Shown here: positions 3,578 through 45,172 of the stretch, in pieces
How positions within the stretch are numbered: the first letter of the stretch is position 1
Layout: each line of letters begins with the position of its first letter
Assembly (NCBI GenBank): GCA_964557845.1
Contig: CAZLBV010000215.1
Coordinates: 3,582 to 67,581, forward strand
DNA length: 64,000 nucleotides
DNA from: an uncultured Eubacteriales bacterium
Lineage (GTDB): Bacteria; Acidobacteriota; Aminicenantia; Aminicenantales; Aminicenantaceae
Direction of reading: 5' to 3'
Program-made: the position numbers and the translations under genes
Notes under the pieces: generated by a model
Databases searched by the model: none
What the model was told of the DNA's origin: nothing
What the model saw: only the letters and a program-made list of their open reading frames with translations

Positions 3578-4720
3578 ATGGAACATGAAAAGAATTGGTG
3601 GGTATATCCGGGCTTTAAAATTAAAATGGTTGTGTCTGACCTTTATTTGCCAGTTAATATTTCTTTTGTAAAGAAACCTGGTGAAAGTAATCGAGACCCC
3701 CTTTTTTATGTGACTGAATTGTATGGTACCGTAAAAGTTATAACAAAGAATTACACGGTTCATACTTATGCTGAAGATTTATTGAATTATAGGGGAAGCG
3801 CTGAATTCCCCGGGAGCGGAGAATCTGGGTTGACCGGGATCTGCGTGGAGCCGGAATCTGGGGACCTTTTTCTTTCCATGCTTTACAAAGACGGAGATGA
3901 TTTCAAAGGTAAAGTTATAAGAGCTATCAGTAGCCGAGATGGTTTGAAGATGAAGGCTAGTGAAACAGTTATCGATAATATTCCTTCAACAAGACGTGCT
4001 CATCAGGTCCAAGCGGTTACTATTGGTCCAGATAATAAACTGTATATCAACATTGGTGACGGAGGAGATTGGACAAAATCTCAAGATAAAAATGATCTAA
4101 GAGGTAAAATTTTACGGTTAAGCCAAAATGGTAAGATCCCGTGGGATAATCCCGATCCAAATAGTCCGGTTTATGCTAAAGGATTAAGGAATCCTTTTGG
4201 AGCTGTTTGGAGAAAGAGCGACAGCTCTCTTTATATTGCAGGAAATGGACCTGATGTGGATGACCGCATCGCTAAAATCATGCCTTTTGAAAATTACGGA
4301 TGGCCAGGTACGATGAGAAAAAATAGCATTTTTTGGTGGCATTATACCCAAGCCCCGACAGCCCTCGATTTTATGCAGGACGGTCAGTTCCCGGCTCAGT
4401 TTGGGGATCATCTCTTTGTAGCTTTATTTGGAGCCGCTTATCAAAAAGGTCCACATGAGAAGGGGAAAAAAATAATCAAAATCCAACTGAATGAATCAGC
4501 AACATCAGTCAAATCTTACGATCACTTTGTGGTATATAAAGGAAAAGAAGCTGCTAGTCCCTGTGGTCTTGCATTTGGCCCAGATGGTTTATATTTTTCT
4601 GATCTTCATGGAGAAAAAATGGGTGCAGGGAATATCTTCAAGATTGTTCCTGATTGGGATAAACTAAAAGAAATGAGAAAGAAAACAGAAGAATATGATA
4701 AGATTTGGAATTCTTCTTAG
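3578..4720 (+). CDS. PQQ-dependent sugar (glucose/sorbosone) dehydrogenase-like beta-propeller protein
   Basis: 380 aa containing the GLRNPFG motif and a beta-propeller-like repeat pattern characteristic of the soluble quinoprotein dehydrogenase family. No signal peptide is visible. Confidence 0.5.
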   Translation: MEHEKNWWVYPGFKIKMVVSDLYLPVNISFVKKPGESNRDPLFYVTELYGTVKVITKNYTVHTYAEDLLNYRGSAEFPGSGESGLTGICVEPESGDLFLSMLYKDGDDFKGKVIRAISSRDGLKMKASETVIDNIPSTRRAHQVQAVTIGPDNKLYINIGDGGDWTKSQDKNDLRGKILRLSQNGKIPWDNPDPNSPVYAKGLRNPFGAVWRKSDSSLYIAGNGPDVDDRIAKIMPFENYGWPGTMRKNSIFWWHYTQAPTALDFMQDGQFPAQFGDHLFVALFGAAYQKGPHEKGKKIIKIQLNESATSVKSYDHFVVYKGKEAASPCGLAFGPDGLYFSDLHGEKMGAGNIFKIVPDWDKLKEMRKKTEEYDKIWNSS

Positions 4721-4843
4721 CGCCGGATATCAGATCCTGCGTGACAATTAAGACGATTAATAACACTCGAAGATTATATAAAGCGGCTTAGGGAATTGAC
4801 ATGATGATTAATCCGTATTATTGTTTTATCCACGAGGACTTCG

Positions 4844-5263
4844 ATGTCAAAAGTCACAAGATTTGGTGTGTCGCTTGATGATGAATTGCTTCATAAATTT
4901 GACGCCTTGATCGAGAAAACTGGTTATTCCAGCCGCTCCGAAGCCATTCGAGACCTGATTAGAAATAGAATGGTAGAAGAAGAGTGGAAAGAGGAAAGTA
5001 CGATTACAGTAGGAATACTCGGCCTTACTTTTGATCATGACGCCCGGGAGCTTACTGAAAAGTTAACCAAGATCCAGCATCAATATATTGATGCTATTGT
5101 ATCTTCTACCCATCTTCATCTGGATTCCCATAATTGCCTCGAGGTCATTTTACTTAAAGGGGAAAGCGGCCTGATCAAAAAGATCGCAGACGAACTTATT
5201 AGCACCCGAAGAGTTAAGCATGGGAAGTTATTAACGATGTCCACTGGCTCACAACTTTCCTGA
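4844..5263 (+). CDS. nikR: nickel-responsive transcriptional regulator NikR
   Basis: 139 aa. The N-terminus is a ribbon-helix-helix (RFGVSLDDELLHKFDALIEKTGYSSRSEAIRDLIR) and the C-terminus is a His/Cys-containing metal-binding domain (HLHLDSHNCLEV). Both are diagnostic of NikR. Confidence 0.85.
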   Translation: MSKVTRFGVSLDDELLHKFDALIEKTGYSSRSEAIRDLIRNRMVEEEWKEESTITVGILGLTFDHDARELTEKLTKIQHQYIDAIVSSTHLHLDSHNCLEVILLKGESGLIKKIADELISTRRVKHGKLLTMSTGSQLS

Positions 5264-5472
5264 ATCATCAGTAAAATAGGCCGATTTGTATCAATCTCTT
5301 TTCAATCTTGGACAAATAGTTTTCAAAATTAAGGAATATTGAATCGGTCATGGTGCTGGTTTAATTTATTATCAGCCTCTTTTACCCCACTGGGGTGGGG
5401 CGCGCTGATGTCAGCCCAAACACGTCAATGCCTCGAGTTCGAGGTGTTAATCATGAAACAAGAAAAAAGATA

Positions 5473-5504
5473 AAGGCTGCCCTTTTATGAAAAAAGGGCA
5501 GCCT
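5473..5504. terminator. perfect 14-bp inverted repeat hairpin (AAGGCTGCCCTTTT-atga-AAAAGGGCAGCCTT), candidate bidirectional rho-independent terminator
   Basis: Read directly from the sequence. The GC core of the stem is flanked by T/A runs on both arms, and a T-rich tail follows on the minus strand (read as TTTATCTTTTTTCTTG). It lies about 210 nt downstream of the nikR stop. Confidence 0.5.
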
Positions 5505-6100
5505 TAAAAGGGGATGGATTAAAAGATTAGGTGATTTATGTAAAATCCTTCGAAAAAAGGAGGGGTTAAAAGGAGGGATTTACATTTTCTGTTGCGTCTT
5601 TCTTTCCTCATTTTTGTCATTCCATATATATATACGCTGGTTTTGGGAAAAAAGTTGCCAATTATGCTTGAAAACAAGAGATTTTTATGTTTTTTTCCTA
5701 AATTAGGAAATTCATTAAAAAATTTGGTCATCAATTTAGTTTTTTAATCATGAAAAGAAATATGAAAGTATCCTAAAAGAAGGGAAATTATACTGTAACT
5801 TGTTGAAAACAAATAATATGTTTTACTTTTCTTATTTGATCTAACCCCTTAACCAATGCTATGAAAATATTATATCATAAATTATTATAAAATATCAAGC
5901 TTTTATTCAAATTTTTTATTATTTTCAATTAATTAGTTTGTTATGGCAGTTTTTTGCCTTATATTGCACCAAATTTACATGTTTTTTTGACTTTATATAA
6001 AAACAACACCTGATCGCTAATTTCTAAAAGAACCTTTGACTTAGGAAAAATGTTATTTTACTATGAATAATCCGGGTAAATTTTTAAGAGGATAAGTAAC

Positions 6101-7543: not shown

Positions 7544-8554
7544 TTAGCTGATAACTCCGTTGGTGTATAACTTAACATGCAAAATATAATCCACTAATAC
7601 ATCATAGTTTTCGGCAAACCTATTAACTCTTTCTTCGAGTGAGCTTTTCCCTAGGAGTTTAACTTCGATCTGATCAAGATATATATAATTAACAACAGCA
7701 CGTGCATGTATGGCTTCCAGAGGTTCCAGTGCTTTAAAAAGTTTTAAGGCCTTATTTTTTACAAGGGTCACGTCCCATTTTTTTAAATCAAGAAGATGTC
7801 GTATTTTAAGAGAAGGATAAATTAAATTCCGTGCCAGAAAAGTCTGTCTTATTGTTTGCTTGCATTCCTCGATAGTATCTTCGGAATACAGACCTTTTTT
7901 TTGAGTGGGGATGGGAAGAAATTCTGCGATCGTATCGAATATCAGCTTTTTGTTTTCTTTTCCATAGATCCAACCTACATATGGAATGAGAATGCCGCTC
8001 TTTAACAGATTTAATTTTTTTTCTTTGAACCTGGATCCTAAAAAACTATCCTGATAAACATCTCTTGGTTGTTCGTTATAGTATTTACTCAAATAGTTTC
8101 CCAACCCATACATATATGAATTCATTATCATCCCTATCTGAGAAAGGTCTAAAAATGTAATGGGATCCGTTCGGACACCCTTTTCAACTTTACCAGAACA
8201 CATCATAAAAAGATCACAAGCCAGAAACAAAGATTTTCTGGTGAAATCTAGAATATATTTCCTTTCTTCATTAGGCAGGTCTTTTATAATAAACAAAACA
8301 TCAATATCATCTTCAATAGTGGGTATCCCCCGCAGCCAGCTGCCTCTCAAGTTTATGGACAAAAAATTATCCCCATATTTAGCCTTCAGTTTCTCTCCTG
8401 TTTCATTAAGAGTGTCTTCGAGCAGGTCAAACAGTCTATTTCTTCTAAGGGGATTATCCGGGTGGAAAAAAGGAAACCTGAACTCATGGCTTGCTCTGAG
8501 GTAAAATTTAATGGTTTTGATGTCTGTTTTTTTATTAATGGAATATTCAGCCAT
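7544..8554 (-). CDS. orphan Pol-beta-superfamily nucleotidyltransferase with a ~220-aa C-terminal helical domain; substrate unknown
   Basis: 336 aa. The minimal nucleotidyltransferase signature GS-x11-DDIDVLFII sits at residues ~70-90 (LRGSWLRGIPTIEDDIDVLFIIKD), followed by a possible third acidic residue (LACDLF). There is no recognisable partner gene, and it lies between convergent and divergent neighbours. Confidence 0.55.
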   Translation of the reverse strand: MAEYSINKKTDIKTIKFYLRASHEFRFPFFHPDNPLRRNRLFDLLEDTLNETGEKLKAKYGDNFLSINLRGSWLRGIPTIEDDIDVLFIIKDLPNEERKYILDFTRKSLFLACDLFMMCSGKVEKGVRTDPITFLDLSQIGMIMNSYMYGLGNYLSKYYNEQPRDVYQDSFLGSRFKEKKLNLLKSGILIPYVGWIYGKENKKLIFDTIAEFLPIPTQKKGLYSEDTIEECKQTIRQTFLARNLIYPSLKIRHLLDLKKWDVTLVKNKALKLFKALEPLEAIHARAVVNYIYLDQIEVKLLGKSSLEERVNRFAENYDVLVDYILHVKLYTNGVIS

Positions 8555-8678
8555 TTTATGATTTCTCTAACGGCAATTTTAATTCTTATGATCGATATTT
8601 TCAACGTTTTAAAAACTTGAAGATACAGAAGTAAAAGTGTACATTATTCACTGAAATCTACGAAAAATAGCCAGAAAA

Positions 8679-9617
8679 ATGATCGTTCTTACCGACAGTA
8701 TCTCTTTTGCAGAATGTTTGATCCTTCCAGGACAAAGTTGGGTTAAAAGGGATATTTCTTATTTTGATGAAAATACTGCTTTAAAGGAAATAGCCTCTGA
8801 GATTTTTCCTGATGGATCATTCTATCAAACAGATGTTTTCTCAGGGTGGAGATGGAGTTTTGCTTTCATTTCTGAGAAATTAGGACTTTCTAATTATGAT
8901 TTAATGATAGATGTAGGCAGAATAAGAAATGATCTCCCGCATGGGCTTGTGTTTGTGGCTGGAGAGAGTAATTTCTGCCATGGACACCACGGCCGTAAAT
9001 GGACAGCTCTACCCGGGAACCTGCATTTAACGGTTTTCCTTACACCCAAATGCCGGATGGCTTTTTTCGGGACAGGATTTTCCATACTTGCGGCTGTCTC
9101 AGTGGTTGAAACCATTGATGGTTTCCAAGGATTAAAGGGAAAGGCTCAGATCAAGTGGGTCAATGATATTATTATTGGAGAGGCAAAAATCGCTGGATTC
9201 CTGGCCCATACTCACAGCATGGGAACTGAGGTTGAATCTGCCATCATCGGCATAGGAATGAATGTTGAAACTAATCCTGGTATCGGGAGTGATGATTTTA
9301 TTCCGGATTCAGTCTCCCTTTTAGAACTGGTATCGACCGAGGAAGATTGTGATCTAGGTAAGGTTTTCCGGAGGTTGCTGACTAGATTGGAGAAAAATTA
9401 TATTCAGCTTAGGACCGGAGATTATAATAAACTCCTCTCTTTTTATCGAGAAAGGTCACTGGTCATAGGACGCAAGGTGAAGATCCTTTCGGATAGAGAG
9501 GATAGCGACAAAAGTGTCATTGCTTCGGGAGTAGTCAGGAAGATAGGTGATAATTTGGAACTTTATCTTGAAGGGCGGGAGCATCCAGTCACCCATGGAC
9601 GGCTGATTTTGGAATAA
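8679..9617 (+). CDS. biotin--[acetyl-CoA-carboxylase] ligase (BirA-like catalytic domain) with a non-HTH N-terminal extension
   Basis: 312 aa. It carries a BPL catalytic-loop variant (CHGHHGRKW, versus the canonical GRGRxGRxW) and KWVNDIIIGEAKIAGFL. It sits immediately upstream of the biotin-dependent oadGAB genes. Confidence 0.7.
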   Translation: MIVLTDSISFAECLILPGQSWVKRDISYFDENTALKEIASEIFPDGSFYQTDVFSGWRWSFAFISEKLGLSNYDLMIDVGRIRNDLPHGLVFVAGESNFCHGHHGRKWTALPGNLHLTVFLTPKCRMAFFGTGFSILAAVSVVETIDGFQGLKGKAQIKWVNDIIIGEAKIAGFLAHTHSMGTEVESAIIGIGMNVETNPGIGSDDFIPDSVSLLELVSTEEDCDLGKVFRRLLTRLEKNYIQLRTGDYNKLLSFYRERSLVIGRKVKILSDREDSDKSVIASGVVRKIGDNLELYLEGREHPVTHGRLILE

Positions 9618-9812
9618 TTGAGAAAAAGATTTATATTAAGTCAAATACAGGTCATATCTTGACTTGTTAGAAATGGGATTCTATACTTGCGTGTATTCCA
9701 CGACGTGTAATTAATGTGGGAGAAGATGAATTAGGATAGATCAAAACTGAAATATCATGTTGAAAATATATTATTTCAGGATTTCTTTTCGTCTCGTCAA
9801 GGAGATTAATAA

Positions 9813-10025
9813 ATGGGAACAGCAAACTTATTAGTAATATGTTTATTAGCGATTTTCTGGGTTTTTACCATTTTAGCTGTTTTGGCTCTCCTGATGAGAT
9901 TGATCATCCTGGTCTTTCCTGAAAAAAGGGGGAAAATAGATGGGGCTATAATTTCAGCGATAACGGCAGCGGCTTTTTCCGTATTTCCTGGACTGAAAAT
10001 TACGAAGATAGAGGAGAAAAAATGA
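9813..10025 (+). CDS. oadG: oxaloacetate decarboxylase gamma subunit (OadG family)
   Basis: 70 aa with a single N-terminal transmembrane helix. It directly precedes oadA and overlaps it by 4 nt. Confidence 0.65.
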   Translation: MGTANLLVICLLAIFWVFTILAVLALLMRLIILVFPEKRGKIDGAIISAITAAAFSVFPGLKITKIEEKK

Positions 10026-11878
10026 TATTCACCAAGACAGAAAAAACCATTCGTGTAATGTTCATGCCTTTTCGGGATGGCCTGCAGAGTTCATTTGGAG
10101 GAAAGGTCCGCCTTGCAGATATCCTGCCGGCCATGCAGGCTTCTGCTGAAGCCGGGATACATCATTTTGAGTTTGGTGGGGGCGCTCGCTTTCAAGCTCC
10201 TCTTTTTTATTTAGGAGAAAATCCATTTGAAGATATGAGGAAGATGCGTGAAGTGGTAGGTCCTGATGTCGATCTTCAAATCCTGACACGTTCAGTTTCA
10301 GGTGTTACTCTTACTACTCAGTCTCCTGAGACACTGAGGATGCAGGCAGAGTTAATGAAAAACGCCGGGACCACTTGGGACCGTAATTTTGACTATATGA
10401 ATGATGTAAGAAATCTGATTAATACAGGCCGTCCTATTGTTGAATCCGGAATGCATCATCAAGTTGCCATCGCATTGATGGGGATGCCTTTTCATTCGGA
10501 TAAGGTTCATACCGCGGATTTTTACATAAATATTGGAAAACAGTTGCTTGACAGTGATCTACATATTGACAGTATTTGTTTAAAGGATGCCAGCGGCACA
10601 ACTGATCCTAAGACCATATACGATACTGCAGTTGGCCTAAAAAAACTAATGCCGCCTGAGATGATATTGTGGATGCACACCCATGACACAGCCAGCATGG
10701 CAGTCGCCTGTTATATGGCGGCGGTTGCCGGAGGGGCTGATGGGATTGATCTGTCAGTGCGGCCGATGGCAAGTGGAACAGTTCAGCCTGATGTACGGTC
10801 CATGGCTCACGCGTTAAAGGGGACCGGATACAAACTGGATGTAGATCCCTCAAAAATGAATGAAATAGAGAATATGCTCAGTGAATTGATGAAAGATTAT
10901 GACTTTAATCCTACCACAACTACACCCGACGCCCGCGTTTTAGGGTTTCCTATGCCGGGTGGTGCTATCGGGCCCAATGTTCATATGATGGTTAAAGCCG
11001 GGATCCTGGATAAATACAGTGATGTCTTAGCAGAGTTCCCAGTTGTAGTGGAAGCAGGTGGGGCCTGGACTAGCGTAACCCCAGGCAGTCAGCAGTACTG
11101 GCTGCAGGCTTTTAATAATGTTCTTTACGGAAGATGGAAGAAGATCGATGCCGGTTATGGAAAAGCTGTGCTGGGTTATTTTGGGAAAACTCCCCTTCCT
11201 CCTGATCCAGAAGTCGTCAAGATTGCCTCAGAACTATTGGAGATGCCTGTTTTTGAAGGTGATCCTTTAGAGGCTGCGCCTAAGAATATCGAACCGGCAA
11301 AAAAAGCTTTGGAGGAAAGAAATATACCGGTCACGGATGAGAATATATTTTTGGTGATGGCTGCGATGGTTCCCGGAAAGAAAATGGAGCTTAATGAGGG
11401 AATTCGGCTTTTGACTGGAAAGGCCAAGATAGATATTCCGCTTAAAGAAAAAGAGGAACCAAAAGCTGAAACTCAGCCTCCTGCTCCTTCTACAGCAGTT
11501 CAACCGATCACAAGTGGTCCGGTAACATCACGTTGCACTGTTACGGAGAATAATATTTCCCGTGTGTTTACAGTGATACTGGAACCAATTAACGCCCCTC
11601 AGACTAATCAGGCAACTTCTGTGTCTCCTTCTCCCAATGAATCTTTGGATACAGTGGCTGGAACCTCTGTTTATTCCACCTTTGCTGGTACCGTAGAAGT
11701 TGTTGATATTAAAGTCAAAATAGGTGATGCGGTAACCAAAGGCCAGGTGGTGGCTAATGTGGAAGCCATGAAGGCTACCCATGACATTGTGGCTCCCAAA
11801 GATGGAAAAGTTACGGCCATACATGTGAAAGTCGGGGATGAGGTAGATTCCACCAAACCCATCCTGACTCTTTCATAA
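10022..11878 (+). CDS. oadA: oxaloacetate decarboxylase alpha subunit (carboxyltransferase + C-terminal biotinyl domain)
   Basis: 618 aa. The N-terminus is a TIM-barrel carboxyltransferase (FRDGLQS). A Pro/Ala/Thr-rich linker connects to a C-terminal biotinyl domain (VEAMKATHDIVAPKDGKV). Confidence 0.85.
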   Translation: MIFTKTEKTIRVMFMPFRDGLQSSFGGKVRLADILPAMQASAEAGIHHFEFGGGARFQAPLFYLGENPFEDMRKMREVVGPDVDLQILTRSVSGVTLTTQSPETLRMQAELMKNAGTTWDRNFDYMNDVRNLINTGRPIVESGMHHQVAIALMGMPFHSDKVHTADFYINIGKQLLDSDLHIDSICLKDASGTTDPKTIYDTAVGLKKLMPPEMILWMHTHDTASMAVACYMAAVAGGADGIDLSVRPMASGTVQPDVRSMAHALKGTGYKLDVDPSKMNEIENMLSELMKDYDFNPTTTTPDARVLGFPMPGGAIGPNVHMMVKAGILDKYSDVLAEFPVVVEAGGAWTSVTPGSQQYWLQAFNNVLYGRWKKIDAGYGKAVLGYFGKTPLPPDPEVVKIASELLEMPVFEGDPLEAAPKNIEPAKKALEERNIPVTDENIFLVMAAMVPGKKMELNEGIRLLTGKAKIDIPLKEKEEPKAETQPPAPSTAVQPITSGPVTSRCTVTENNISRVFTVILEPINAPQTNQATSVSPSPNESLDTVAGTSVYSTFAGTVEVVDIKVKIGDAVTKGQVVANVEAMKATHDIVAPKDGKVTAIHVKVGDEVDSTKPILTLS

Positions 11879-17302: not shown

Positions 17303-17791
17303 TTGAAAAGGACAAACCGACATGATAATATTTCGGCTAAAGAAAATATGTTTTTAAGAAAAAGATACTATTGGATTTTTTATCTCTTGCTCATACTGGG
17401 TATTACATTTATTTTTCTGAGTAATAACTATTTACTAAACAGGACGGTCAGAGAAATATCAATGAGACTGGTCCAGATTGAGATTTTATCAAGTAAAACT
17501 GCTGTGGATTATAAAGTGTCATTTTATAAGGATCACTATGAAGTGAAAGTCTATAACAATATTAATGATCTGTGGGAGATATACACACGAGATTTTTATC
17601 CTAAAGGTATCATTACAGATTCTCTGCCAGTAGAGTTCTACTTTTCAAGAGGAAGATTCAGAGAGTATCAATTTAAAGACAGAAATAGAAAAACTCCTAA
17701 ATCAATGATTCTCTATTTTTCTTATAAGGGGAGTGAAAAGAAAAGAGCGCTTATATTTTTCAAGGATAATGACTGGAAAGTTTTAGGTTAG
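17303..17791 (+). CDS. hypothetical membrane-anchored protein
   Basis: 162-aa ORF with one N-terminal transmembrane helix. I recognise no family. The true start may be the internal Met at 17348. Confidence 0.35.
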   Translation: MKRTNRHDNISAKENMFLRKRYYWIFYLLLILGITFIFLSNNYLLNRTVREISMRLVQIEILSSKTAVDYKVSFYKDHYEVKVYNNINDLWEIYTRDFYPKGIITDSLPVEFYFSRGRFREYQFKDRNRKTPKSMILYFSYKGSEKKRALIFFKDNDWKVLG

Positions 17792-17797
17792 ATTTAC

Positions 17798-19186
17798 ATG
17801 AAAAAACTTTTGTCTTTCGTAGAAAGATCCTGGCCTTTCCTTGTTTTTTTAGTATTTACTATCGGGATCCGCATTTTTTCCTATTCTATTATGCAGCCTG
17901 TTGTCCATACGGATACTATCAGTTATCTTTTTATTCAGGAATTGGATTCAGTTAGAACACCAGGATACCCTCTTTTTCTTGAGATTTTCTTTTCTTTAAA
18001 TGATCTTTTTTTTCTGACTGTTGATTATTTTGATCTAATATGCTTCGCGCAAATATTTTTCCTTGGATTCCTTAACTCCCTTCTTATATACAAGATCACA
18101 GAGGCTTTAACAGCGAATAGAATATTTTCAATGCTGATGGGTATTATTTATAATTTTAACTTTTTTGTCGTAAGCTTTGAATATCAAATCCTAACTGAAT
18201 CTCTTTCCATTACACTTATTTTAGCGGGGATACTCTTCTATATAAGTATCCATAAAGCCAAAAAAAGCTCGGCAGTTTTAGCAGGGATTATTTTCGTTTT
18301 GCTTATATACACGAGGCCTGGTTTTCTTCTTTTAGGTTTTGCACTTCCGGTGCTGACCTTTTTGGGATTTATGCCCCGCTCCAAGGAAAAGAAATTCTGG
18401 AAGGATCTTGGTCCTTTCCTTGTTATTTTTCTTTTAATAAATATCCTTGGTATCGGTGCTTGGTCCATGCGCAATCAGATCAAATATGATTATTTCGGCA
18501 TGTCAAGTCTTATGCCTTTTAACCTAAGGTGGTATACCAATACTCTTATCCATAAATATAGACCGCGTGGTGATGAAAAATTGAACAAGATAGCCGCTGT
18601 CTATGCGGAAGAATACGAGAAAACAGCTTCTTCTTCTGTGACATTTTATAATTTTCAGAAAAGGGTGAGTGAAGAGATGGGCCTTACAGAAACAGAAATA
18701 TCTAAAGCCCTTTTAAAAATAAATATCCACTTGATTATGGATTATCCAGGAGAATATTTTGAACAGGTGCCTGGGTCCATGGTAAATTATTACCAACAAT
18801 ATTCACCGTTGTGGGCAGGTGGAAATACCAAGAAATTTATTCTAAGTAAAAATCTGTTCTCAAAAATCTTTAAATTCTTTTTCTTCATTTATCAAAAATT
18901 ATTCACCAGCACTTTGTTTCTGATTATTCTTGTGGCTGCCGCCCCAATCATAGTTCTTATGCTCACGTTTAAAAACAAGCCGGTCTTTCATGGATGGGTG
19001 ATTATTGAGACATTTATACTTTATAATTGTATTGTTTCTGTTTTTTCCACGAATGCAGGTGTCAATAATCTTAGGTATAGAGCGCCGGTTGAGCCTTTGA
19101 TCCTTTTGGTTTTATATGCTGCGATTTTTTATCTTTTTATGAGGATCAGGGAATCTGGAGTTTTTTTATCCCGGCATTCTTCTTGA
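17798..19186 (+). CDS. polytopic membrane protein, possibly a GT-C-fold glycosyltransferase (ArnT/PMT-like)
   Basis: 462 aa with at least 10 predicted transmembrane helices and an RTPGYPLFL motif in the first loop, as in GT-C enzymes. Family assignment is tentative. Confidence 0.4.
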   Translation: MKKLLSFVERSWPFLVFLVFTIGIRIFSYSIMQPVVHTDTISYLFIQELDSVRTPGYPLFLEIFFSLNDLFFLTVDYFDLICFAQIFFLGFLNSLLIYKITEALTANRIFSMLMGIIYNFNFFVVSFEYQILTESLSITLILAGILFYISIHKAKKSSAVLAGIIFVLLIYTRPGFLLLGFALPVLTFLGFMPRSKEKKFWKDLGPFLVIFLLINILGIGAWSMRNQIKYDYFGMSSLMPFNLRWYTNTLIHKYRPRGDEKLNKIAAVYAEEYEKTASSSVTFYNFQKRVSEEMGLTETEISKALLKINIHLIMDYPGEYFEQVPGSMVNYYQQYSPLWAGGNTKKFILSKNLFSKIFKFFFFIYQKLFTSTLFLIILVAAAPIIVLMLTFKNKPVFHGWVIIETFILYNCIVSVFSTNAGVNNLRYRAPVEPLILLVLYAAIFYLFMRIRESGVFLSRHSS

Positions 19187-20264
19187 CAACATAGGCTTTT
19201 GCTCTAGGTTCTCCATTTTTGGAATCGGAAATTTGGATTCTGGGACCGACAGGCAAATCACATACAATCTGATCGAATTCCAACCCCCTAGATCTTATTT
19301 TTTCTATGATTCCGAAAATCTTATTACTCGGTCGGGATGTAGTAAGGATAAGAGAATATCCATTGTCCTGCAATTCCTTTAATTTTTCTAAAGAGCCGCC
19401 TATAAATTCTATATCCTCAACCTCATCAAGAGGGACAGCTGAATGTTTTATGATTATACCTTCCAGATCACAGAAAATTGTAGCTTTTCTATTTTGACGA
19501 AATGTTTTTTCGGTGATAGGAATAGGAATGTGAGAAACATTTTCAATCTCAGGGAAAGGGGTCATGTTTCCTTCTGAATCACAAGCAATGGTTTTATCTG
19601 AGAAGTTCTTAAAAAGGAGTTTAAAGAAAATATTTTCGCTGTACATAGTGATAAGATTGCGGATCATGATCTCAGGAAGACTGCGGCGGGTAGTGTCTTT
19701 TTTAAGGATTCGTTCATGACATAGGATATCCGGAGTATTGACCAGTAAGATAATATCCAGATTTTCAAGATATTCGACTCCGCCGAGAATGCAGTTCTCA
19801 AAAAGAATGATACCCTTTTCTATCCCGGCGACATCTATAGTGAGGTCTTTTTTCCCGCTGAGACGGTTATAAGCATTTTTTATATAAAGATCCTTACCCA
19901 TGATCAATTCTCTTAGATCCCGGAAGATAAGCTCAAAATTCCACCAGCTGAACTGGTTGATGGCGTAGAGATAGGCATCTATACCAGTTCTCCATTTTTC
20001 CTGCATCCATAATTTTCTTTCTGCCGAATCAAGATTGAACCTCCAGTCGCCCGAATAAATGATGTTTTCAATTTTATTATGTTTCAGTTCATTTGAAATC
20101 TTATTGACCAGAGTTGTTTTTCCGGAGCCGGCCCTGCCGCACACACCCGCTAGAACTCGCTTTTTGTGGACAGCTAACTCTTTTATTCTATTAACGATTA
20201 AATCAGTGATCTCCACTGATGTATCTCCTTGTTTTTGTGAGCGTGTCTTCAGTTCCGAATTCAA
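19146..20264 (-). CDS. bifunctional fusion: uridine-kinase/phosphoribulokinase-family P-loop kinase + HAD-superfamily phosphatase-like domain
   Basis: 372 aa. The N-terminal half is a UK/PRK-family kinase with Walker A GVCGRAGSGKTT and DIILLVNTPDILCHERILKKDTTRR. The C-terminal half has HAD motif I-like FCDLEGII. Confidence 0.6.
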   Translation of the reverse strand: MNSELKTRSQKQGDTSVEITDLIVNRIKELAVHKKRVLAGVCGRAGSGKTTLVNKISNELKHNKIENIIYSGDWRFNLDSAERKLWMQEKWRTGIDAYLYAINQFSWWNFELIFRDLRELIMGKDLYIKNAYNRLSGKKDLTIDVAGIEKGIILFENCILGGVEYLENLDIILLVNTPDILCHERILKKDTTRRSLPEIMIRNLITMYSENIFFKLLFKNFSDKTIACDSEGNMTPFPEIENVSHIPIPITEKTFRQNRKATIFCDLEGIIIKHSAVPLDEVEDIEFIGGSLEKLKELQDNGYSLILTTSRPSNKIFGIIEKIRSRGLEFDQIVCDLPVGPRIQISDSKNGEPRAKAYVVKKNAGIKKLQIP

Positions 20265-20958
20265 ACATTTTTGTCAGAGGCAGAACAATGGTTCGTGCCT
20301 TTTTAATATAAGGTCGAACAACATCAAAGGCATAATCAATATCTTCAGATTTTGGGTTCAATACGGCTGCATTGTATACGATAGATTTCAGGAGCATGGT
20401 ATTATGGCAGATCATAATTCCTGTGAATCCATTTTTTTTGATAGAATTAAGGTCTTCATTCTCAATAAGGTCTAGTGCGACGCCTTCTTCAACAACAGCC
20501 AAGGTTTTGTATGTCCCATAGACATATCTTTCTTCAGGTATACAAACACCGATAGCATCGTAGTCAACCGAGAATTGTTCCTCGATGATATAATCACAGA
20601 AAGTGATCAACGTGGGGATTCTTGAATTGGCCCGATCCAGAGCGTAGATCAATGATTTTCCGGGACCCCTGAGTTCTGAAACCTCCTCCCGGCTGAATAA
20701 AAGGTTTAGTGATGAATATTTTCCTTTCACATAATTTTTTAGCAGGTCTGCACTGTATCCGACAGTAATAATTATCCGTTCAGCGAGATACTGGTACTTA
20801 GAGATTAAATAATCAATGGCGCGCAGTTCCCCCAGTTCAACCAGGGCTTTGGGAATATAATCCGTCTCAGGTTTAAGCCTCGTGCCGAGTCCGGACGCTA
20901 GGATTATGACATTGAAGGTTTTATTTTTTATACTGAACAATGGCGAAACTTTATACAT
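20203..20958 (-). CDS. sugar-phosphate/phospho-alcohol nucleotidyltransferase (LicC/G1P-NTase family)
   Basis: Called from the internal Met at 20958 (MYKVSPLF...NVIILASGLGTRLKP, the GxGTRL NTP-transferase motif). The track ORF extends further upstream into the neighbouring gene. ATG at 20958 lies 1 nt after the stop of the upstream GT2 gene. Confidence 0.7.
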   Translation of the reverse strand: MYKVSPLFSIKNKTFNVIILASGLGTRLKPETDYIPKALVELGELRAIDYLISKYQYLAERIIITVGYSADLLKNYVKGKYSSLNLLFSREEVSELRGPGKSLIYALDRANSRIPTLITFCDYIIEEQFSVDYDAIGVCIPEERYVYGTYKTLAVVEEGVALDLIENEDLNSIKKNGFTGIMICHNTMLLKSIVYNAAVLNPKSEDIDYAFDVVRPYIKKARTIVLPLTKMFEFGTEDTLTKTRRYISGDH

Positions 20959-20959
20959 A

Positions 20960-21709
20960 TTAAGCCTCTTGGTTTTGTTTATTTTTTTTATTTGGTTTCC
21001 AAAATGCCAGATGGATAATAGTTTTGAGAACAGACCATATATTTTTTGGCTTGAATATCTTCGTTGCTCCTCCACCAGGCCTTTCCACATGAATATAGGG
21101 AACTTCAATATATGTTTTACCTTCTTTTATCGCTTTTATTAGTAGCTCTGATTGGAAGCCGAAGCCGGTGCTGTTGAGTTTTATTTTTTTCAACCACTCT
21201 GTCTTGTGAATCTGTATCCCATTATAATACTTCAGGGATAAACGAAAAAAAACATTCATAAACTTAGTGAATGCCTTTGAGATCAACTGCCTGATTCTAT
21301 TTCTGGATTCAGGATTTTTTATATACCCGCACACTACATCAGCTTTTCCGACAGCCGAAAACACTTCATCAAGTGTTTCTCTAGGAAAAACATTATCGCC
21401 ATGTACCATAACTGAATACTGCATTCGGGCATCATTTCTGCCTGAATTGTAACTGGCACCGAATCCCCTTGTTTCAGGATGTGTGATAACGCGTATCTTG
21501 TTATTATTTCTGAGATTTTCCTCGATGATCGTAAGGGTTCCGTCAGTGCTGCCGTCATTGACAACGATGATCTCGTAATCTTCAAAATTTTTTTCTGCGG
21601 CATACACGGCCGCATCGATAGAGCCTTGAATGTTACCTTCTTCATTCAAGGCTGGGATGATTATGCTTATAGATCTTTTTTTTAATATTTTTTCCCTTTC
21701 AGATGTCAT
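20960..21709 (-). CDS. family-2 glycosyltransferase (dolichyl/polyprenyl-phosphate sugar synthase-like)
   Basis: 249 aa with GT-A motifs: SIIIPALNEE, IIVVNDGSTDGT and a DxD-like VHGDN. Confidence 0.8.
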   Translation of the reverse strand: MTSEREKILKKRSISIIIPALNEEGNIQGSIDAAVYAAEKNFEDYEIIVVNDGSTDGTLTIIEENLRNNNKIRVITHPETRGFGASYNSGRNDARMQYSVMVHGDNVFPRETLDEVFSAVGKADVVCGYIKNPESRNRIRQLISKAFTKFMNVFFRLSLKYYNGIQIHKTEWLKKIKLNSTGFGFQSELLIKAIKEGKTYIEVPYIHVERPGGGATKIFKPKNIWSVLKTIIHLAFWKPNKKNKQNQEA

Positions 21710-21990
21710 GAAGATTTTCTCTATGTTCTGTTATGCTTTTTATATAATTAGTTACCTTAAATTGAAACATCCAAATTTTATAGGCAAACAAAAGATTTTT
21801 CAAGCTGAGAAAGAGAGGAGTTTCCGGCCTTATATCACAAAAAAAGCAAGTTAAACACCATTGATGAAGATCATGCGGGCTATCAACTTGTAAAAAGACA
21901 CTAAATTAACTGGAAAATATAGACTGATTTAAAATAGTGGGATCAATTATTCTGAGTGGAGTGACTTGATCGGATTGGCCATGGACGCGG

Positions 21991-22743
21991 TCATAAGCTT
22001 TTTGCAGCCGAAAGGCCGGGAAATAGACATAACGAAAGTCCCCAGAAAAAATACGATTTGTGGCCAATGACTTCAAGTAGAACGAGAGTACCTTGGACAA
22101 AAGGAGTTATCTGAAGATCGCCCAGGGAAATAGGGAATTCGAATTTTAAATTCAAGTCGCTGAATCCCGTATCAGTGTCATCAGGTAGCCATTGCCCGCC
22201 ATTATAACCGAGAGACCCATATGCATTAATTCCGAAAGATTTCAATGCCTGGAAAAAGAACTCTGCCTCCAGTTCGGCATAAAAACCATCTCCATTGGTA
22301 AAGTCATAATATATATTAAAGGAAGGGCTAACTGGGAGATCGGTCACCTCAACCTGGAGGAAGATCTCATGAGAGGTGTCTTTATTAAATTGAAAATCCT
22401 CGGCAAAATACCAGCCGTAATGGATGATCCCTCCAGTTAGTTGGATCTTTTTGATTCCCGAATAAGTATAGGACAATGTAAGATCAAACTCGTTTACTTC
22501 CTTGTCTTGGAAAGAAAATATTCCATATGCCTCCACGTAAAGTCCTGTATTACCTAAGTTATAGGCGAGCCAAGGGGCCAGAATTGGTTTTTCCCTTGGG
22601 TTAAGATCGAATCCTCTCCATATATAGCTTGAATTGTAATCAGTACCGATCTCCAACTGGGCAGAGAGGGAATTGATTAGAATTAAACTAAGGAGAAGAA
22701 TGGATGTCGTTATAGCCTTAATCATATTTACAGTTTTTCTCAT
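21991..22743 (-). CDS. putative outer-membrane beta-barrel protein (signal peptide + amphipathic beta-strands)
   Basis: 250 aa with an N-terminal signal peptide (ITTSILLLSLILINSLSAQ) and alternating aromatic/hydrophobic beta-strand periodicity. It suggests a diderm host. Confidence 0.45.
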   Translation of the reverse strand: MRKTVNMIKAITTSILLLSLILINSLSAQLEIGTDYNSSYIWRGFDLNPREKPILAPWLAYNLGNTGLYVEAYGIFSFQDKEVNEFDLTLSYTYSGIKKIQLTGGIIHYGWYFAEDFQFNKDTSHEIFLQVEVTDLPVSPSFNIYYDFTNGDGFYAELEAEFFFQALKSFGINAYGSLGYNGGQWLPDDTDTGFSDLNLKFEFPISLGDLQITPFVQGTLVLLEVIGHKSYFFWGLSLCLFPGLSAAKSL

Positions 22744-38979: not shown

Positions 38980-39912
38980 ATGACAAAATATAAAAAGATC
39001 GGATTGAGCGATGTTTTGATGTTATTAGTTGTAGTTGTATGGTCAGTTAATTTTCTGTTTGTGAAGCAATCATTGTTGGAACTCCCTCCACTTATATTCA
39101 ATGGGATCAGATTGATGGTGGCAGCTATAACGTTGCTGATATTTGCAGCTGCCGCTGGAGAGAATTTTAAGGTTAAAAAAAGAGACATATGGAAAATATT
39201 CGTTCTTGGAATCATAGGGAATACTTTTTACCAGATATTTTTCATCCTTGGCTTTGATTTGACCACAGCCTCCAATACATCTGTCATTTTAGCTATGACC
39301 CCTGTTTTTGTGGCTTTGCTGAGTACGATGATAAGACAAGAAATACTCCACTGGGCTGTTTGGATAGGAATTTTTCTTTCCTTTGTTGGTTTGTATCTTG
39401 TTATTGCGGGAAAATCAGGCACTTTTCAGGTTTCCTGGGAGTACATCCGGGGCGATGTGATCGTATTCTCTGGAGTATTTTTTTGGGCTTTTTATACCGT
39501 ATTTTCCAAGCCGATGCTGGAGAGAATATCTCCCCTGAAATGGACGGCTCTCACTATGTCTGCGGGAGCATTAATGTTCTTTTTAGTTTCCCTGAATAAA
39601 ATAATTGTTTTTGACTTCCAGGGAGTATCTCTGGGGACCTGGATAAAGTTGGGATATTCCGGTGTTTTCGCATTGGGCGTGGGCTATTTTATATGGTATT
39701 TGTCAGTAAAAAGAATTGGAAGCAGTAAGACATCTGTTTACTCCAATATGGTTCCTGTTTTTACTATTATTTTGTCCTATTTTTTTTTAAAAGAATCTGT
39801 TTCTTTCATCCAAGCTTTAGGTGCAGTCACGATCCTTACCGGAGTTTATCTTACCAGAGCTGGCGATAGATGGTTTGAACGAAAGAAAAAACTGCCGGAA
39901 TATCCATATTAA
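38980..39912 (+). CDS. DMT-superfamily (EamA-like) transporter
   Basis: 310 aa with 10 TM helices and a duplicated EamA-like architecture. Confidence 0.75.
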   Translation: MTKYKKIGLSDVLMLLVVVVWSVNFLFVKQSLLELPPLIFNGIRLMVAAITLLIFAAAAGENFKVKKRDIWKIFVLGIIGNTFYQIFFILGFDLTTASNTSVILAMTPVFVALLSTMIRQEILHWAVWIGIFLSFVGLYLVIAGKSGTFQVSWEYIRGDVIVFSGVFFWAFYTVFSKPMLERISPLKWTALTMSAGALMFFLVSLNKIIVFDFQGVSLGTWIKLGYSGVFALGVGYFIWYLSVKRIGSSKTSVYSNMVPVFTIILSYFFLKESVSFIQALGAVTILTGVYLTRAGDRWFERKKKLPEYPY

Positions 39913-43642: not shown

Positions 43643-44413
43643 AGTTTTTAACAGTTCTCCAGGACTTGTTTATAAAGCTCTTTTAATCTTTCCAACTGAT
43701 TTATGATGTTGTATTCTCTTTCGATCTCGAAAACAAGAAAATCTTTACGCATGTTTTTTTTTATCCGTTATGCCCCTTCATCAATTCCTCTAATCATATC
43801 AGAAAAAGTATATAACATATGCCCTGAACCAAGTCAAAGAGGTGCTGTAGAGGTACTGTAGATAGGGGCTAACATAAGGAGGGTTTTACTGATGCTTTGC
43901 GATAAAACACTAAATATTAAGGCAGTCTGTTTGAATTAATCTTTTAATAAAAATTATGTATACTTTAATAAAACCAAGAGGAGCTTTCCTTCGAGAAATT
44001 GACATCCAGGGCAAAGAGATTAATTTTACATGGCGGCCTGAGAGCATGTGATCTTAACAGCTATTGGCCAGGCCGGGCCCCAACTGTAAAACCGGTTTGA
44101 GAATTTAGGATAGGATTGGAGTTCTTCAGACAGGCAGACGATCTGAATGGTTTCCATTCTGGCATCCGTAATGTGAAGTCTATTTTCTTCCTCACTCACT
44201 TTCCCAGGAAAAATCAGTAGCTTTTCCAGGTATTTCCTGTTTTGGAGTGGGGATCTCTCCCCGGCCGATAAAAGATCTTGCTTTGCCCACCAGACATGCG
44301 TTTCTCGGTCACGCCTTTGCTTATTTTATGGTTTGCCATTTATAAAATAGCATGAAGCATAAATCCAGCGCATTTATTAACGAATTCAACACCGTTTATT
44401 TCAATAAACATAA

Positions 44414-45157: not shown

Positions 45158-45172
45158 TTTTTAAAATTTTTT

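What the first reader, a model, noticed from the sequence alone, without database searches (positions are those of the whole stretch)
19146..21709. Three-gene head-group activation module: GT2, LicC-like nucleotidyltransferase and a uridine-kinase-like kinase fused to a HAD domain
The arrangement kinase, (phosphatase/phosphomutase), nucleotidyltransferase, then transferase is the logic of the CDP-choline (LicA/LicC/LicD), CDP-alcohol and NDP-heptose pathways. Here, however, the kinase is of the P-loop uridine-kinase/PRK family rather than the usual choline/GHMP kinases, and it is fused to a HAD-like domain. The substrate is therefore not predictable from known paradigms. It sits next to membrane GT-C-like proteins (17798-19186) and could decorate a surface glycan or lipid with an unusual phospho-head group.
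Basis: inference. Interest (0 to 1): 0.5.

Follow-up and report, generated by a model that had tools for sequence, protein, structure and literature searches.

The report
Three-gene sugar activation and lipid-loading operon
Three tightly packed genes from an uncultured bacterium most likely turn a common sugar phosphate into a nucleotide-sugar, using a kinase type never seen in this role, and load it onto a lipid carrier for the membrane glycosyltransferase next door; the cassette recurs in many uncultured bacteria, archaea and one phage, and nobody has characterised it.

Summary

The kinase-HAD gene follows its own nucleotidyltransferase in 16 of 16 independent loci. These span Zixibacteria, Acidobacteriota, Planctomycetes, CPR bacteria and DPANN archaea. 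An unfused version occurs in Tetrasphaera phage TJE1. In nine bacterial loci the same roughly 250-aa GT2 and a multi-pass membrane protein with the same N-terminal loop motif as the window's GT-C (fold tested only for the window's own) complete the set.

The GT2 is of the dolichol-phosphate-mannose-synthase type. The HAD domain resembles GmhB and the phage arabinose-1,5-bisphosphate phosphatase AfhF.

Best reading (confidence about 0.5): a sugar phosphate is phosphorylated to a bisphosphate, trimmed to sugar-1-phosphate, made into an NDP-sugar, loaded onto polyprenyl phosphate, and transferred by the GT-C outside the membrane. This is the NDP-heptose and UDP-arabinofuranose logic with a non-homologous kinase and a new fusion.

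The sugar, the nucleotide and the order of steps are unknown. Verdict: a new variant of a known kind, of moderate interest.

The parts
20960..21709 (-). GT2 glycosyltransferase, 249 aa, no predicted membrane helices. It is of the polyprenyl-phosphate glycosyltransferase type (DPM1 / GtrB / ArnC-like). First gene of the operon.
   Evidence: Pfam Glycos_transf_2, E=7e-24. The best solved match is P. furiosus Dol-P-Man synthase 5mlz, E=6e-11, over residues 11-238; GtrB and ArnC also hit. NCBIfam shows full-length weak matches to AglJ, Dol-P-hexose transferase and PpgS. Orthologues at 46-64% identity lie upstream of the NTase/kinase-HAD pair in 9 bacterial loci.
20203..20958 (-). Small sugar-phosphate nucleotidyltransferase, 251 aa. 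It belongs to the LicC / PntC / HddC / MurU neighbourhood but is a member of no curated family.
   Evidence: NTP_transf_3 E=2e-7 and NTP_transferase E=3e-5. Family profile against the PDB: LicC 7e-11, PntC 6pd1 2e-8, HddC 1.5e-6, Glc-1-P cytidylyltransferase, MurU. It carries the G-x-G-x-R-L-x-P-x-T-x-x-x-P-K signature. All NCBIfam hits are far below cut-off. It sits immediately upstream of the kinase-HAD gene in 16/16 loci. The family has 129 members, all from metagenomes or MAGs.
19512..20216 (-). P-loop kinase domain of the fusion protein (residues 1 to about 235), PRK / uridine-kinase / pantothenate-kinase / glycerate-3-kinase fold.
19146..19487 (-). Capless (C0) HAD phosphatase domain of the fusion protein (residues about 244-356).
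17798..19186 (+). GT-C-fold membrane glycosyltransferase, 462 aa, about 9 membrane helices. It is convergent with the operon, and the 3' ends overlap by 41 nt. It is the presumed user of the lipid-linked sugar.
17303..17791 (+). Small single-pass membrane protein (162 aa from the TTG; the gene call is 147 aa) directly upstream of the GT-C gene. It may be an accessory subunit; its membership of the system is tentative.
   Evidence: No family hit. Orthologues at 38-39% identity occupy the same position upstream of the GT-C orthologue in two other genomes, L034 and L035.
21710..21990 (-). 281-nt intergenic region upstream of the GT2 gene; presumed promoter region of the three-gene operon.
   Evidence: It is the only sizeable gap in the module. 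Inside the operon the gaps are 1 nt and -14 nt. A sigma-70-like match TTGAAA-17-TAAAAT lies at 21803-21775, but such matches are no more frequent than in shuffled sequence, so this part is inference only.

Best explanation
The three genes form one operon that makes a dedicated activated sugar and hands it to the membrane glycosyltransferase next door.

Proposed steps:
1. The P-loop kinase domain phosphorylates a sugar phosphate that ordinary metabolism already supplies, giving a sugar 1,n-bisphosphate.
2. The fused HAD domain removes the distal phosphate, leaving sugar-1-phosphate.
3. The small nucleotidyltransferase converts this to an NDP-sugar. In some relatives a GalE-like epimerase then edits it.
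4. The soluble DPM1/GtrB-type GT2 transfers the sugar to undecaprenyl (polyprenyl) phosphate.
5. After flipping, the convergent GT-C enzyme (17798-19186) transfers it to a periplasmic or surface acceptor: a glycan, a lipid or a protein.

What is shown:
- the domain identities and folds;
- intact catalytic motifs (with one Asp-to-Glu change in the window's HAD domain);
- the operon structure;
- the conserved co-occurrence of the genes.

What is inferred:
- the bisphosphate route, by analogy with HddA/HldE-GmhB-HddC and phage AfhE-AfhF;
- that the kinase acts on the anomeric hydroxyl;
- the lipid carrier step;
- that the GT-C uses this particular donor.

Unknown: the sugar, the nucleotide base and the acceptor. 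Candidate sugars are a pentofuranose such as D-Araf or D-Ribf, a heptose, or a hexose.
For: 1. Tight operon. The GT2 stop is 1 nt from the NTase ATG. The NTase stop overlaps the kinase-HAD GTG by 14 nt, with an AGGAG upstream.

2. Conserved pairing. An NTase orthologue (43-62% identity) lies immediately upstream of the kinase-HAD gene in 16/16 independent loci from at least eight phylum-level groups. The two families are similar in size (91 and 129 members) and share many contigs.

3. The same three activities occur as separate ORFs in Tetrasphaera phage TJE1: NTase (37% identity), HAD and P-loop kinase. They are followed by a nucleotide-sugar epimerase, a methyltransferase and a glycosyltransferase.

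5. HAD homologues at 35-41% identity sit in Synechococcus phage S-SRM01 beside a SIS sugar-phosphate isomerase and an NTase-APH-kinase fusion. That is the AfhE/AfhF architecture. NTase-HAD-APH-kinase triple fusions also carry a closely related HAD domain (E=1e-24); one lies next to a transaldolase/FSA gene.

6. GalE-like NDP-sugar epimerases lie between the GT2 and the NTase in L008, L011 and L030. They are 60% identical to each other.

7. The GT2 aligns end to end only with polyprenyl-phosphate glycosyltransferases.

8. The neighbour has a GT-C fold. All nine bacterial loci with the GT2 carry a 440-520-aa multi-pass membrane protein with the same N-terminal loop motif beside the module. One of these is a Pfam PMT_2 protein, and one further locus also encodes a YfhO protein.

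9. No other sugar-synthesis gene is conserved with the module, so the input should be a common metabolite.
Against: - No biochemical data exist for any member of the family.
- To my knowledge, every characterised member of the PRK / UCK / PanK / glycerate-kinase / NRK fold phosphorylates a primary hydroxyl, not an anomeric one. An anomeric kinase would therefore be a new specificity for this fold. There is a precedent: the PfkB-family HldE kinase made the same shift.
- In L036 the same kinase is fused to an APH-type kinase domain instead of the HAD domain. This suggests the two kinase types may not be interchangeable, so the P-loop kinase may have a different role.
- The HAD domain's similarity to GmhB and AfhF is at fold level only (sequence E=0.006-0.17). 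It is no better than its similarity to HisB-N or to 1xpj, which has no known function.
- The window's HAD domain has Glu in place of the general acid/base Asp, so its activity is uncertain.
- In close relatives, GT-C orthologues at 51-52% identity pair with a different GT2 and have no NTase or kinase-HAD gene. The GT-C is therefore not strictly tied to this donor.
- In CPR and DPANN loci the NTase/kinase-HAD pair occurs without the GT2 or a GT-C, among B12-radical-SAM genes. The lipid-carrier half of the model therefore applies only to the bacterial 'type A' loci.
- No GtrA-like flippase gene is present.
Confidence: 0.5

Rival explanations
1. Same end product, but a different order or chemistry of steps. 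In one version the P-loop kinase phosphorylates a primary hydroxyl (C5, C6 or C7) of a free sugar, as its relatives do, and the HAD domain acts as a phosphomutase. In another, the phosphate is carried through NDP-sugar formation and lipid loading and is removed only afterwards. That would parallel decaprenyl-phosphoribose-5-phosphate phosphatase, or the ribofuranosyl-5-phosphate phosphatases of O-antigen synthesis.
Against: The window and 15 other loci have no second kinase or mutase in the module. Known HAD phosphomutases have cap domains, whereas this HAD domain is capless and about 110 aa. Its nearest characterised structural relatives are phosphatases acting on soluble sugar bisphosphates.
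Confidence: 0.2
2. The module makes a CDP- or NDP-activated non-sugar head group (choline-, polyol-, inositol- or phosphonate-like), which is attached as a phospho-substituent to a surface glycan or lipid, in the manner of LicA/LicC/LicD.
For: The best solved matches of the NTase are LicC (7e-11) and the 2-AEP cytidylyltransferase PntC (2e-8). JGI labels some members 'choline kinase'. One CPR locus (L033) carries PEP-mutase and phosphonate genes 7 kb away.
Against: No LicD, CDP-alcohol phosphotransferase or Stealth-type transferase is conserved with the module. The conserved transferase is a GT2 of the polyprenyl-P glycosyltransferase type. This scheme gives the HAD domain no role. NDP-sugar epimerases are embedded in the module in four loci. 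The LicC similarity covers only the nucleotide-binding N-terminus, and HddC, Glc-1-P cytidylyltransferase and MurU score nearly as well.
Confidence: 0.08
3. A cytoplasmic 'synthase-phosphatase' route to a soluble glycoside such as glucosyl- or mannosylglycerate. The glycerate-kinase-like domain makes the phosphorylated acceptor, the NTase makes the NDP-hexose, the GT2 joins them, and the HAD domain removes the phosphate. The GpgS/GpgP and MpgS/MpgP pairs work this way.
Against: 3-phosphoglycerate is abundant, so a dedicated kinase is not needed. The full-length matches of the GT2 are to lipid-phosphate glycosyltransferases. The module sits beside GT-C membrane enzymes and inside polysaccharide clusters with Wzx, Wzy and GT genes. 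The GT2 is absent from the CPR and DPANN loci.
Confidence: 0.05
4. A housekeeping or repair enzyme adjacent by chance: a nucleoside (uridine/cytidine) kinase with a nucleotidase, or a T4 Pnkp-like polynucleotide kinase / 3'-phosphatase.
Confidence: 0.02

Closest known systems
GDP/ADP-glycero-manno-heptose pathway (HddA or the HldE kinase, the phosphatase GmhB, HddC or the HldE adenylyltransferase)
   Different: The kinase has a P-loop PRK/UCK fold rather than a GHMP (HddA) or PfkB (HldE) fold. The fusion joins kinase and phosphatase, not kinase and NTase. No GmhA/SIS isomerase is associated with the module. All GmhB and HddC model scores are far below cut-off.
Phage UDP-D-arabinofuranose pathway (arabinose-5-P isomerase, the bifunctional NTase + APH-like kinase AfhE, and the HAD phosphatase AfhF; PMC13326640)
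   Different: The kinase fold differs (P-loop against APH/protein-kinase-like) and so does the fusion partner (kinase-HAD against NTase-kinase). No isomerase is present. The product goes to a lipid-carrier GT2 and a GT-C, not to DNA glycosyltransferases.
Three-component periplasmic glycosylation systems (GtrA/GtrB/GtrC, ArnC/ArnT, CsbB/YfhO, Ppm1/Pmt)
   Same: They also pair a GT2 polyprenyl-phosphate glycosyltransferase with a GT-C transferase. The window's GT2 matches DPMS, GtrB and ArnC. The neighbour has a GT-C fold. One related locus carries YfhO and another a PMT_2 protein.
   Different: The known systems draw on housekeeping NDP-sugars. Here a dedicated kinase/phosphatase/NTase set is built into the operon. 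The GT2 lacks membrane helices. No GtrA-type flippase gene is present.
LicA/LicC/LicD phosphocholine decoration
   Same: The gene logic is kinase, nucleotidyltransferase, transferase. LicC is the best solved match of the NTase.
   Different: There is no choline-kinase-fold kinase and no LicD. A HAD domain and a GT2 are present instead. The LicC similarity is limited to the N-terminal nucleotide-binding region.
T4 polynucleotide kinase/phosphatase (Pnkp)
   Same: It has the same domain order: an N-terminal P-loop kinase and a C-terminal capless HAD phosphatase in one polypeptide.

Membership tests
PRK / uridine kinase P-loop kinase superfamily (Pfam PF00485) | The Pfam score is above the gathering threshold, and the fold matches. 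| tested here: met
PRK / uridine kinase P-loop kinase superfamily (Pfam PF00485) | A Walker A motif is present, and a conserved Asp sits at the position of the uridine-cytidine kinase SQD(R/S)FY motif. | tested here: met
   GRAGSGK[TS] and the Asp of SGDWRF are invariant in 79/79 family members. The Asp aligns with the SQDRFY motif of UCK1.
Uridine kinase proper (NCBIfam equivalogs PRK05480 / TIGR00235) | The score reaches the equivalog cut-off. | tested here: not met
   30.9 bits against 180, and 23.9 against 220. Not a uridine kinase by this criterion.
HAD phosphatase superfamily | Motif I DxDx(T/V), motif II S/T, motif III Lys and motif IV acidic residues are present on a Rossmannoid fold. 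| tested here: met
GmhB (heptose 1,7-bisphosphate phosphatase) | The score reaches the family cut-off, and a heptose pathway context (GmhA, HddA/HldE) is present. | tested here: not met
   19.5 bits against 149.6; profile E=0.006, covering the motif I-II region only. No SIS/GmhA gene lies in any of the 16 loci. The resemblance is in fold and logic only.
Sugar-phosphate nucleotidyltransferase (PF00483 / PF12804) | The Pfam score is above the gathering threshold, and the G-x-G-T-R-x(n)-P-K signature is present. | tested here: met
   31.6 bits against 27, and 24.3 against 21.2. The motif LA(S/A)G(L/M)GxRLxPxTxxIPKxL is invariant in the family.
LicC (CTP:phosphocholine cytidylyltransferase) | Full-length similarity to LicC, and LicA/LicD partners. 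| tested here: not met
   The match covers residues 11-83 only. No choline-kinase-fold or LicD gene lies in the window or in related loci.
GlmU / RmlA / GalU / ManC canonical NDP-sugar pyrophosphorylases | The score reaches the equivalog cut-off. | tested here: not met
   The best score is 40 bits against cut-offs of 250-650.
GT2 polyprenyl-phosphate glycosyltransferases (DPM1 / GtrB / ArnC / CsbB type) | A GT-A catalytic domain with the DxD region, followed by the C-terminal interface helices that align with DPMS and GtrB. | tested here: met
   PF00535, E=7e-24. The alignment to PfDPMS covers residues 11-238, including the helices after the catalytic core. Activity on a lipid phosphate was not tested.
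GT2 polyprenyl-phosphate glycosyltransferases (DPM1 / GtrB / ArnC / CsbB type) | A polyprenyl-phosphate-linked sugar is formed. | not testable with these tools
   This needs a membrane assay or lipid extraction after expression.
GT-C glycosyltransferases | The GT-C membrane fold, with an acidic residue in the first extracytoplasmic loop. | tested here: met
Gtr-type three-component glycosylation system | A GtrA-like small flippase is encoded alongside the GT2 and the GT-C. | tested here: not met
   No GtrA-like 4-helix protein was found. The only small neighbour, P162, has one membrane helix. The system may work like a Gtr system but lacks this defining component.

The most novel reading that the evidence does not exclude
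The kinase-HAD/NTase pair may be a previously unrecognised route to an NDP-pentofuranose (for example NDP-D-arabinofuranose or NDP-D-ribofuranose), starting from a pentose 5-phosphate and independent of PRPP. In that case the DPM1-like GT2 would make a polyprenyl-phospho-pentofuranose donor for GT-C enzymes. This would be an analogue of mycobacterial decaprenyl-phospho-arabinose built from unrelated enzymes, spread across uncultured bacteria, CPR, DPANN archaea and a phage.
Probability: 0.1. Interest if true: 0.75.

Novelty: new variant of a known kind. Interest (0 to 1): 0.5.

Why it matters
Nucleotide-sugar supply decides which sugars a cell can display on its surface. Two pathways are known here to use the 'phosphorylate, then trim' bisphosphate trick: NDP-heptose and the recently described phage UDP-arabinofuranose. 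Each uses a different kinase fold.

This cassette would add a third, unrelated kinase fold and a new kinase-phosphatase fusion. It would be wired directly to a lipid-carrier synthase and a GT-C enzyme. If confirmed, three things follow:
- about a hundred proteins now labelled 'uridine kinase' or 'HAD hydrolase' would gain a function;
- a portable three-gene unit would be available for making and lipid-loading an unusual sugar;
- a new surface modification would be flagged in Aminicenantes-like bacteria, CPR and DPANN organisms that cannot be cultured.

The neighbouring GT-C family, which has no Pfam model, would also gain a candidate donor.

Tried and rejected
1. Uridine kinase, phosphoribulokinase or nucleoside salvage. 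Rejected: equivalog scores are far below cut-off, and the gene is locked to an NTase in 16/16 loci.

2. T4 Pnkp-like end healing. Rejected on fold scores and context.

3. Canonical GlmU / RmlA / GalU identity of the NTase. Rejected.

4. Sequence-level assignment of the HAD domain. A family profile reaches only E=0.006 (GmhB) and 0.17 (1xpj), so it cannot discriminate between subfamilies.

5. Finding the organism or a cultured host. Scans of GTDB species representatives and of metagenomes returned only MAGs and short contigs. Synteny with Aminicenantes MAG GCA_016933715.1 suggests the lineage.

6. IMG/VR viral contigs. No relative of the fusion or of the P0215-type triple fusion was found. The GenBank phage collection did give TJE1 and S-SRM01.

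7. A literature search for this fusion found nothing relevant. The AfhE/AfhF primary paper is not in the library, so its content is taken from PMC13326640.

8. The promoter and terminator scan showed no enrichment over shuffled sequence.

9. Sugar-supply genes (SIS isomerases, KdsD, GmhA, mutases) were sought in the window. None was found in the ORFs scanned.

Active-site geometry and the spacing between the kinase and HAD sites could therefore not be examined.

Full report
**What is there**

The interval 19146-21709 holds three minus-strand genes.
- The window is part of JGI metagenome contig 3300001335 ML8_10000347 (159 kb). Independent gene calls there give a 249-aa GT2, a 251-aa nucleotidyltransferase (NTase) and a 356-aa kinase-HAD protein.
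- In window coordinates these are 21709..20960, 20958..20203 and 20216..19146.
- The GT2 stop is one base from the NTase ATG.
- The NTase stop overlaps the GTG start of the kinase-HAD gene by 14 nt, with an AGGAG 8 nt upstream. The same overlap occurs in a distant relative.
- The longer ORFs of 301 and 372 aa listed mechanically are N-terminal over-extensions.
- A 281-nt gap precedes the GT2 gene. Promoter-like matches in it are no more frequent than chance.

**Domain identities**

- GT2: Pfam Glycos_transf_2, E=7e-24.
- NTase: NTP_transf_3 and NTP_transferase just above their thresholds. All NCBIfam equivalogs (GlmU, MurU, HddC, Glc-1-P cytidylyltransferase, GalU and others) are far below cut-off. 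The best solved relatives with a 15-member family profile are LicC (7e-11, N-terminal 75 residues only), PntC, HddC, Glc-1-P cytidylyltransferase, IPCT and MurU.
- Kinase-HAD, kinase part: PRK/uridine-kinase family, E=6e-7. The uridine-kinase equivalogs score about 25-31 bits against cut-offs of 180-220.
- The C-terminal roughly 110 residues match GmhB (9.4), 1xpj (9.3), the phage HY126 D-arabinose-1,5-diphosphate phosphatase AfhF (9.2) and HisB-N (9.1).
- Walker A (GRAGSGK[TS]) and the Asp of SGDWRF are invariant in 79/79 sequences. That Asp aligns with the SQDRFY motif of UCK1.
- The HAD motifs FCDLDGT, TTSR, FDQ, DLP and NDSK are conserved. The window and five relatives have Glu at the second acidic position of motif I (DLEGI); 70 of 77 have Asp.

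**The neighbour at 17798-19186**

- It has no Pfam or NCBIfam hit.
- D39 is invariant in the first loop.

**Is the arrangement conserved?**

- The kinase-HAD family has 91 members at 37-88% identity. All come from metagenomes or MAGs: Zixibacteria, Pirellulales, Patescibacteria, Nanoarchaeota, Aenigmarchaeota and others.
- GTDB species representatives add Acidobacteriota, Cytophagia, a deltaproteobacterium, Planctomycetales and Staskawiczbacteria MAGs, but no cultured genome.
- In 16 of 16 independent loci an orthologue of the window's NTase (43-62% identity) lies immediately upstream on the same strand.
- The NTase family has 129 members and shares many contigs with the kinase-HAD family.

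Two contexts can be told apart.
- Type A covers nine bacterial loci, including the window. An orthologue of the window's GT2 (46-64% identity) lies upstream. In three loci a GalE-like SDR epimerase sits between the GT2 and the NTase; these epimerases are 60% identical to each other, and their best solved matches are UDP-hexose and UDP-HexNAc 4-epimerases. A 440-520-aa multi-pass membrane protein with the D-x-x-x-Y...(R)TxGYP loop lies beside the module. In L030 it is a Pfam PMT_2 protein. In L001 it is followed by YfhO.
- Type B covers CPR and DPANN loci. The pair lacks the GT2 and GT-C. It is flanked by B12-radical-SAM enzymes, two unknown protein families, a DAHP/Kdo8P-synthase-like gene and CMP-sugar-synthetase-like genes.

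**Modular relatives**

A full-library profile search gave 1520 hits at E<1e-3 and 44 at E<1e-30. It shows that the two domains also exist separately and in other fusions.
- Proteins of 600-800 aa combine an NTase, a closely related HAD domain (E=1e-24) and a C-terminal APH-type kinase signature (HGDLxxxN...IDTD). One lies directly after a transaldolase/FSA gene.
- In a UGA=Gly CPR contig the same NTase is followed by this P-loop kinase fused to an APH domain instead of the HAD domain.
- Tetrasphaera phage TJE1 carries the trio unfused. Its orf9 NTase is 37% identical to the window's. An unannotated 115-aa HAD ORF follows, then orf10 (annotated 'guanylate kinase'), which is this kinase. A nucleotide-sugar epimerase, a methyltransferase and a glycosyltransferase come next.
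- Synechococcus phage S-SRM01 has a HAD homologue (35-41% identity) next to a SIS isomerase and an NTase-APH fusion.
- That last layout is the architecture of the AfhE/AfhF pathway. PMC13326640 describes, citing work on phage HY126, that AfhE/AfhF were shown to convert arabinofuranose-5-P to the 1,5-bisphosphate, then to the 1-phosphate, then to UDP-arabinofuranose.

**Most likely mechanism**

The trio of kinase, capless GmhB/AfhF-like phosphatase and small NTase is the signature of the two known 'bisphosphate' routes to nucleotide sugars, NDP-heptose and UDP-Araf.

I therefore propose that:
1. the kinase converts a metabolically available sugar n-phosphate to a 1,n-bisphosphate;
2. the fused HAD domain removes the distal phosphate;
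3. the NTase makes the NDP-sugar.

The GT2 aligns end to end only with Dol-P/Und-P glycosyltransferases (PfDPMS 5mlz residues 11-238; GtrB; ArnC). It lacks membrane helices, like DPM1 and PpgS. It would load the sugar onto polyprenyl phosphate, and the convergent GT-C would transfer it at the outer face of the membrane.

No other sugar-synthesis gene travels with the module, and the ORFs of the window that were scanned encode none. The input should therefore be a common metabolite.

The sugar is not identified.
- Pentose-5-phosphates fit the AfhF analogy and the ribose-type substrates of the kinase's relatives.
- The embedded GalE-like 4-epimerases argue instead for a pyranose hexose or heptose in at least some loci.

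**Weak points**

- No member of the family has been assayed.
- To my knowledge, characterised kinases of this fold act on primary hydroxyls. An anomeric specificity would be new for the fold, although PfkB-family HldE shows that such a shift can happen.
- The P-loop-APH fusion in L036 hints that the two kinase types may do different jobs.
- The HAD assignment rests on fold, not on sequence.
- The window's Asp-to-Glu change may weaken catalysis.
- In an Aminicenantes MAG that is syntenic with the window (OadA/OadB ... P162 - GT-C ... P250 - GDSL - M16), the GT-C orthologue (52% identity) faces a different GT2 (24% identity) and there is no NTase or kinase-HAD gene. A second genome shows the same.
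- The window's three genes therefore look like a swapped-in donor cassette. This fits serotype-like variation, but it also means the GT-C is not strictly dedicated to this donor.
- I put the full model at about 0.5. A further 0.2 goes to variants with a different order or regiochemistry of the same steps.

**Comparison with the known**

- The module works like the NDP-heptose and phage UDP-Araf pathways, joined to a Gtr/Arn/CsbB-YfhO-type lipid-carrier relay.
- It is not a member of any of those families. GmhB, HddC, LicC and uridine-kinase model cut-offs are all missed by wide margins. There is no SIS isomerase, no LicA/LicD and no GtrA.
- Nucleoside salvage or Pnkp-like repair is effectively excluded.

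**Verdict**

- This is a real, conserved, uncharacterised cassette.
- It is a new variant of a known kind of pathway: non-homologous kinase displacement plus a new kinase-phosphatase fusion, coupled to a lipid-carrier GT2 and a GT-C.
- Interest is moderate at 0.5. It is testable with three recombinant proteins and would annotate two orphan families, but the underlying logic is established.

Noticed in passing
window 39909-47217 (- strand): A second, separate glycan locus. It contains a GH123-like protein (39909-41675), a 656-aa PMT_2 GT-C enzyme (41672-43642), an FkbM-type methyltransferase (44414-45157) and a Wzx-like flippase (45823-47217).
   Followed up: no
window 17303-17791 (+); L034 7517-7987; L035 7527-7997: A small single-pass membrane protein with no family hit always sits directly upstream of this GT-C family (38-39% identity across genomes). 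It may be an accessory subunit.
   Followed up: partly
L034 (Aminicenantes MAG GCA_016933715.1) 8001-10126; L035 8001-10487: Genomes syntenic with the window have the same P162/GT-C pair facing a different GT2 (24% identity to the window's), with no NTase or kinase-HAD gene. The window's three genes therefore look like a swapped donor cassette beside a conserved GT-C.
   Followed up: partly
L002, L004, L007, L010, L031, L033 (CPR/DPANN loci): Here the NTase/kinase-HAD pair lacks the GT2 and GT-C. It is flanked by two or three B12-binding radical-SAM enzymes, two conserved unknown proteins (about 360 and 440 aa), a DAHP/Kdo8P-synthase-like gene, a SPASM radical-SAM enzyme and CMP-sugar-synthetase-like genes. 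L033 also has a PEP-mutase-NTase fusion, a phosphonopyruvate-decarboxylase-like gene and an Fe-ADH gene, which suggests phosphonate tailoring.
   Followed up: partly
L036 514-2268: On a contig that reads UGA as Gly (code 25, CPR), the same NTase is followed by the P-loop kinase fused to an APH-type kinase domain instead of the HAD domain. An NDK-like protein, a B12-radical-SAM enzyme and a CYTH protein come next.
   Followed up: partly
P0215 and about 20 related proteins; L037 1304-4191: Triple-fusion proteins of 600-800 aa combine an NTase, a HAD domain closely related to the window's, and an APH-like kinase signature. One directly follows a transaldolase/fructose-6-P-aldolase family gene.
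   Followed up: partly
L038 (Tetrasphaera phage TJE1 NC_019930), locus 4342-5871: This cultured phage carries the unfused trio. An ORF of about 115 aa encoding the HAD domain lies unannotated between orf9 and orf10. Orf10, annotated 'guanylate kinase', is a homologue of the PRK-like kinase studied here.
   Followed up: partly
L039 (Synechococcus phage S-SRM01) 2930-5342: A SIS-domain protein, a 508-aa NTase-APH-kinase fusion ('NDP-sugar synthase') and a 113-aa HAD protein annotated 'T4 Pnkp 3' phosphatase' form an AfhE/AfhF-like sugar-activation set. The phosphatase annotation is probably wrong.
   Followed up: partly
window 19460-19480 (kinase-HAD residues 250-254): Motif I of the HAD domain reads DLEGI in the window and five relatives, where 70 of 77 family members have DLDGT. 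The general acid/base Asp is replaced by Glu, and the consequence for activity is unknown.
   Followed up: partly
window 49323-53042 (- strand): A 1239-aa ORF has no Pfam hit at E<=1e-6.
   Followed up: no
window 21991-22743 (- strand): A 250-aa protein with a signal-peptide-like N-terminus has no family hit. It is 77% identical to its counterpart in the Aminicenantes MAG and flanks the variable cassette site. It may be an outer-membrane protein.
   Followed up: no
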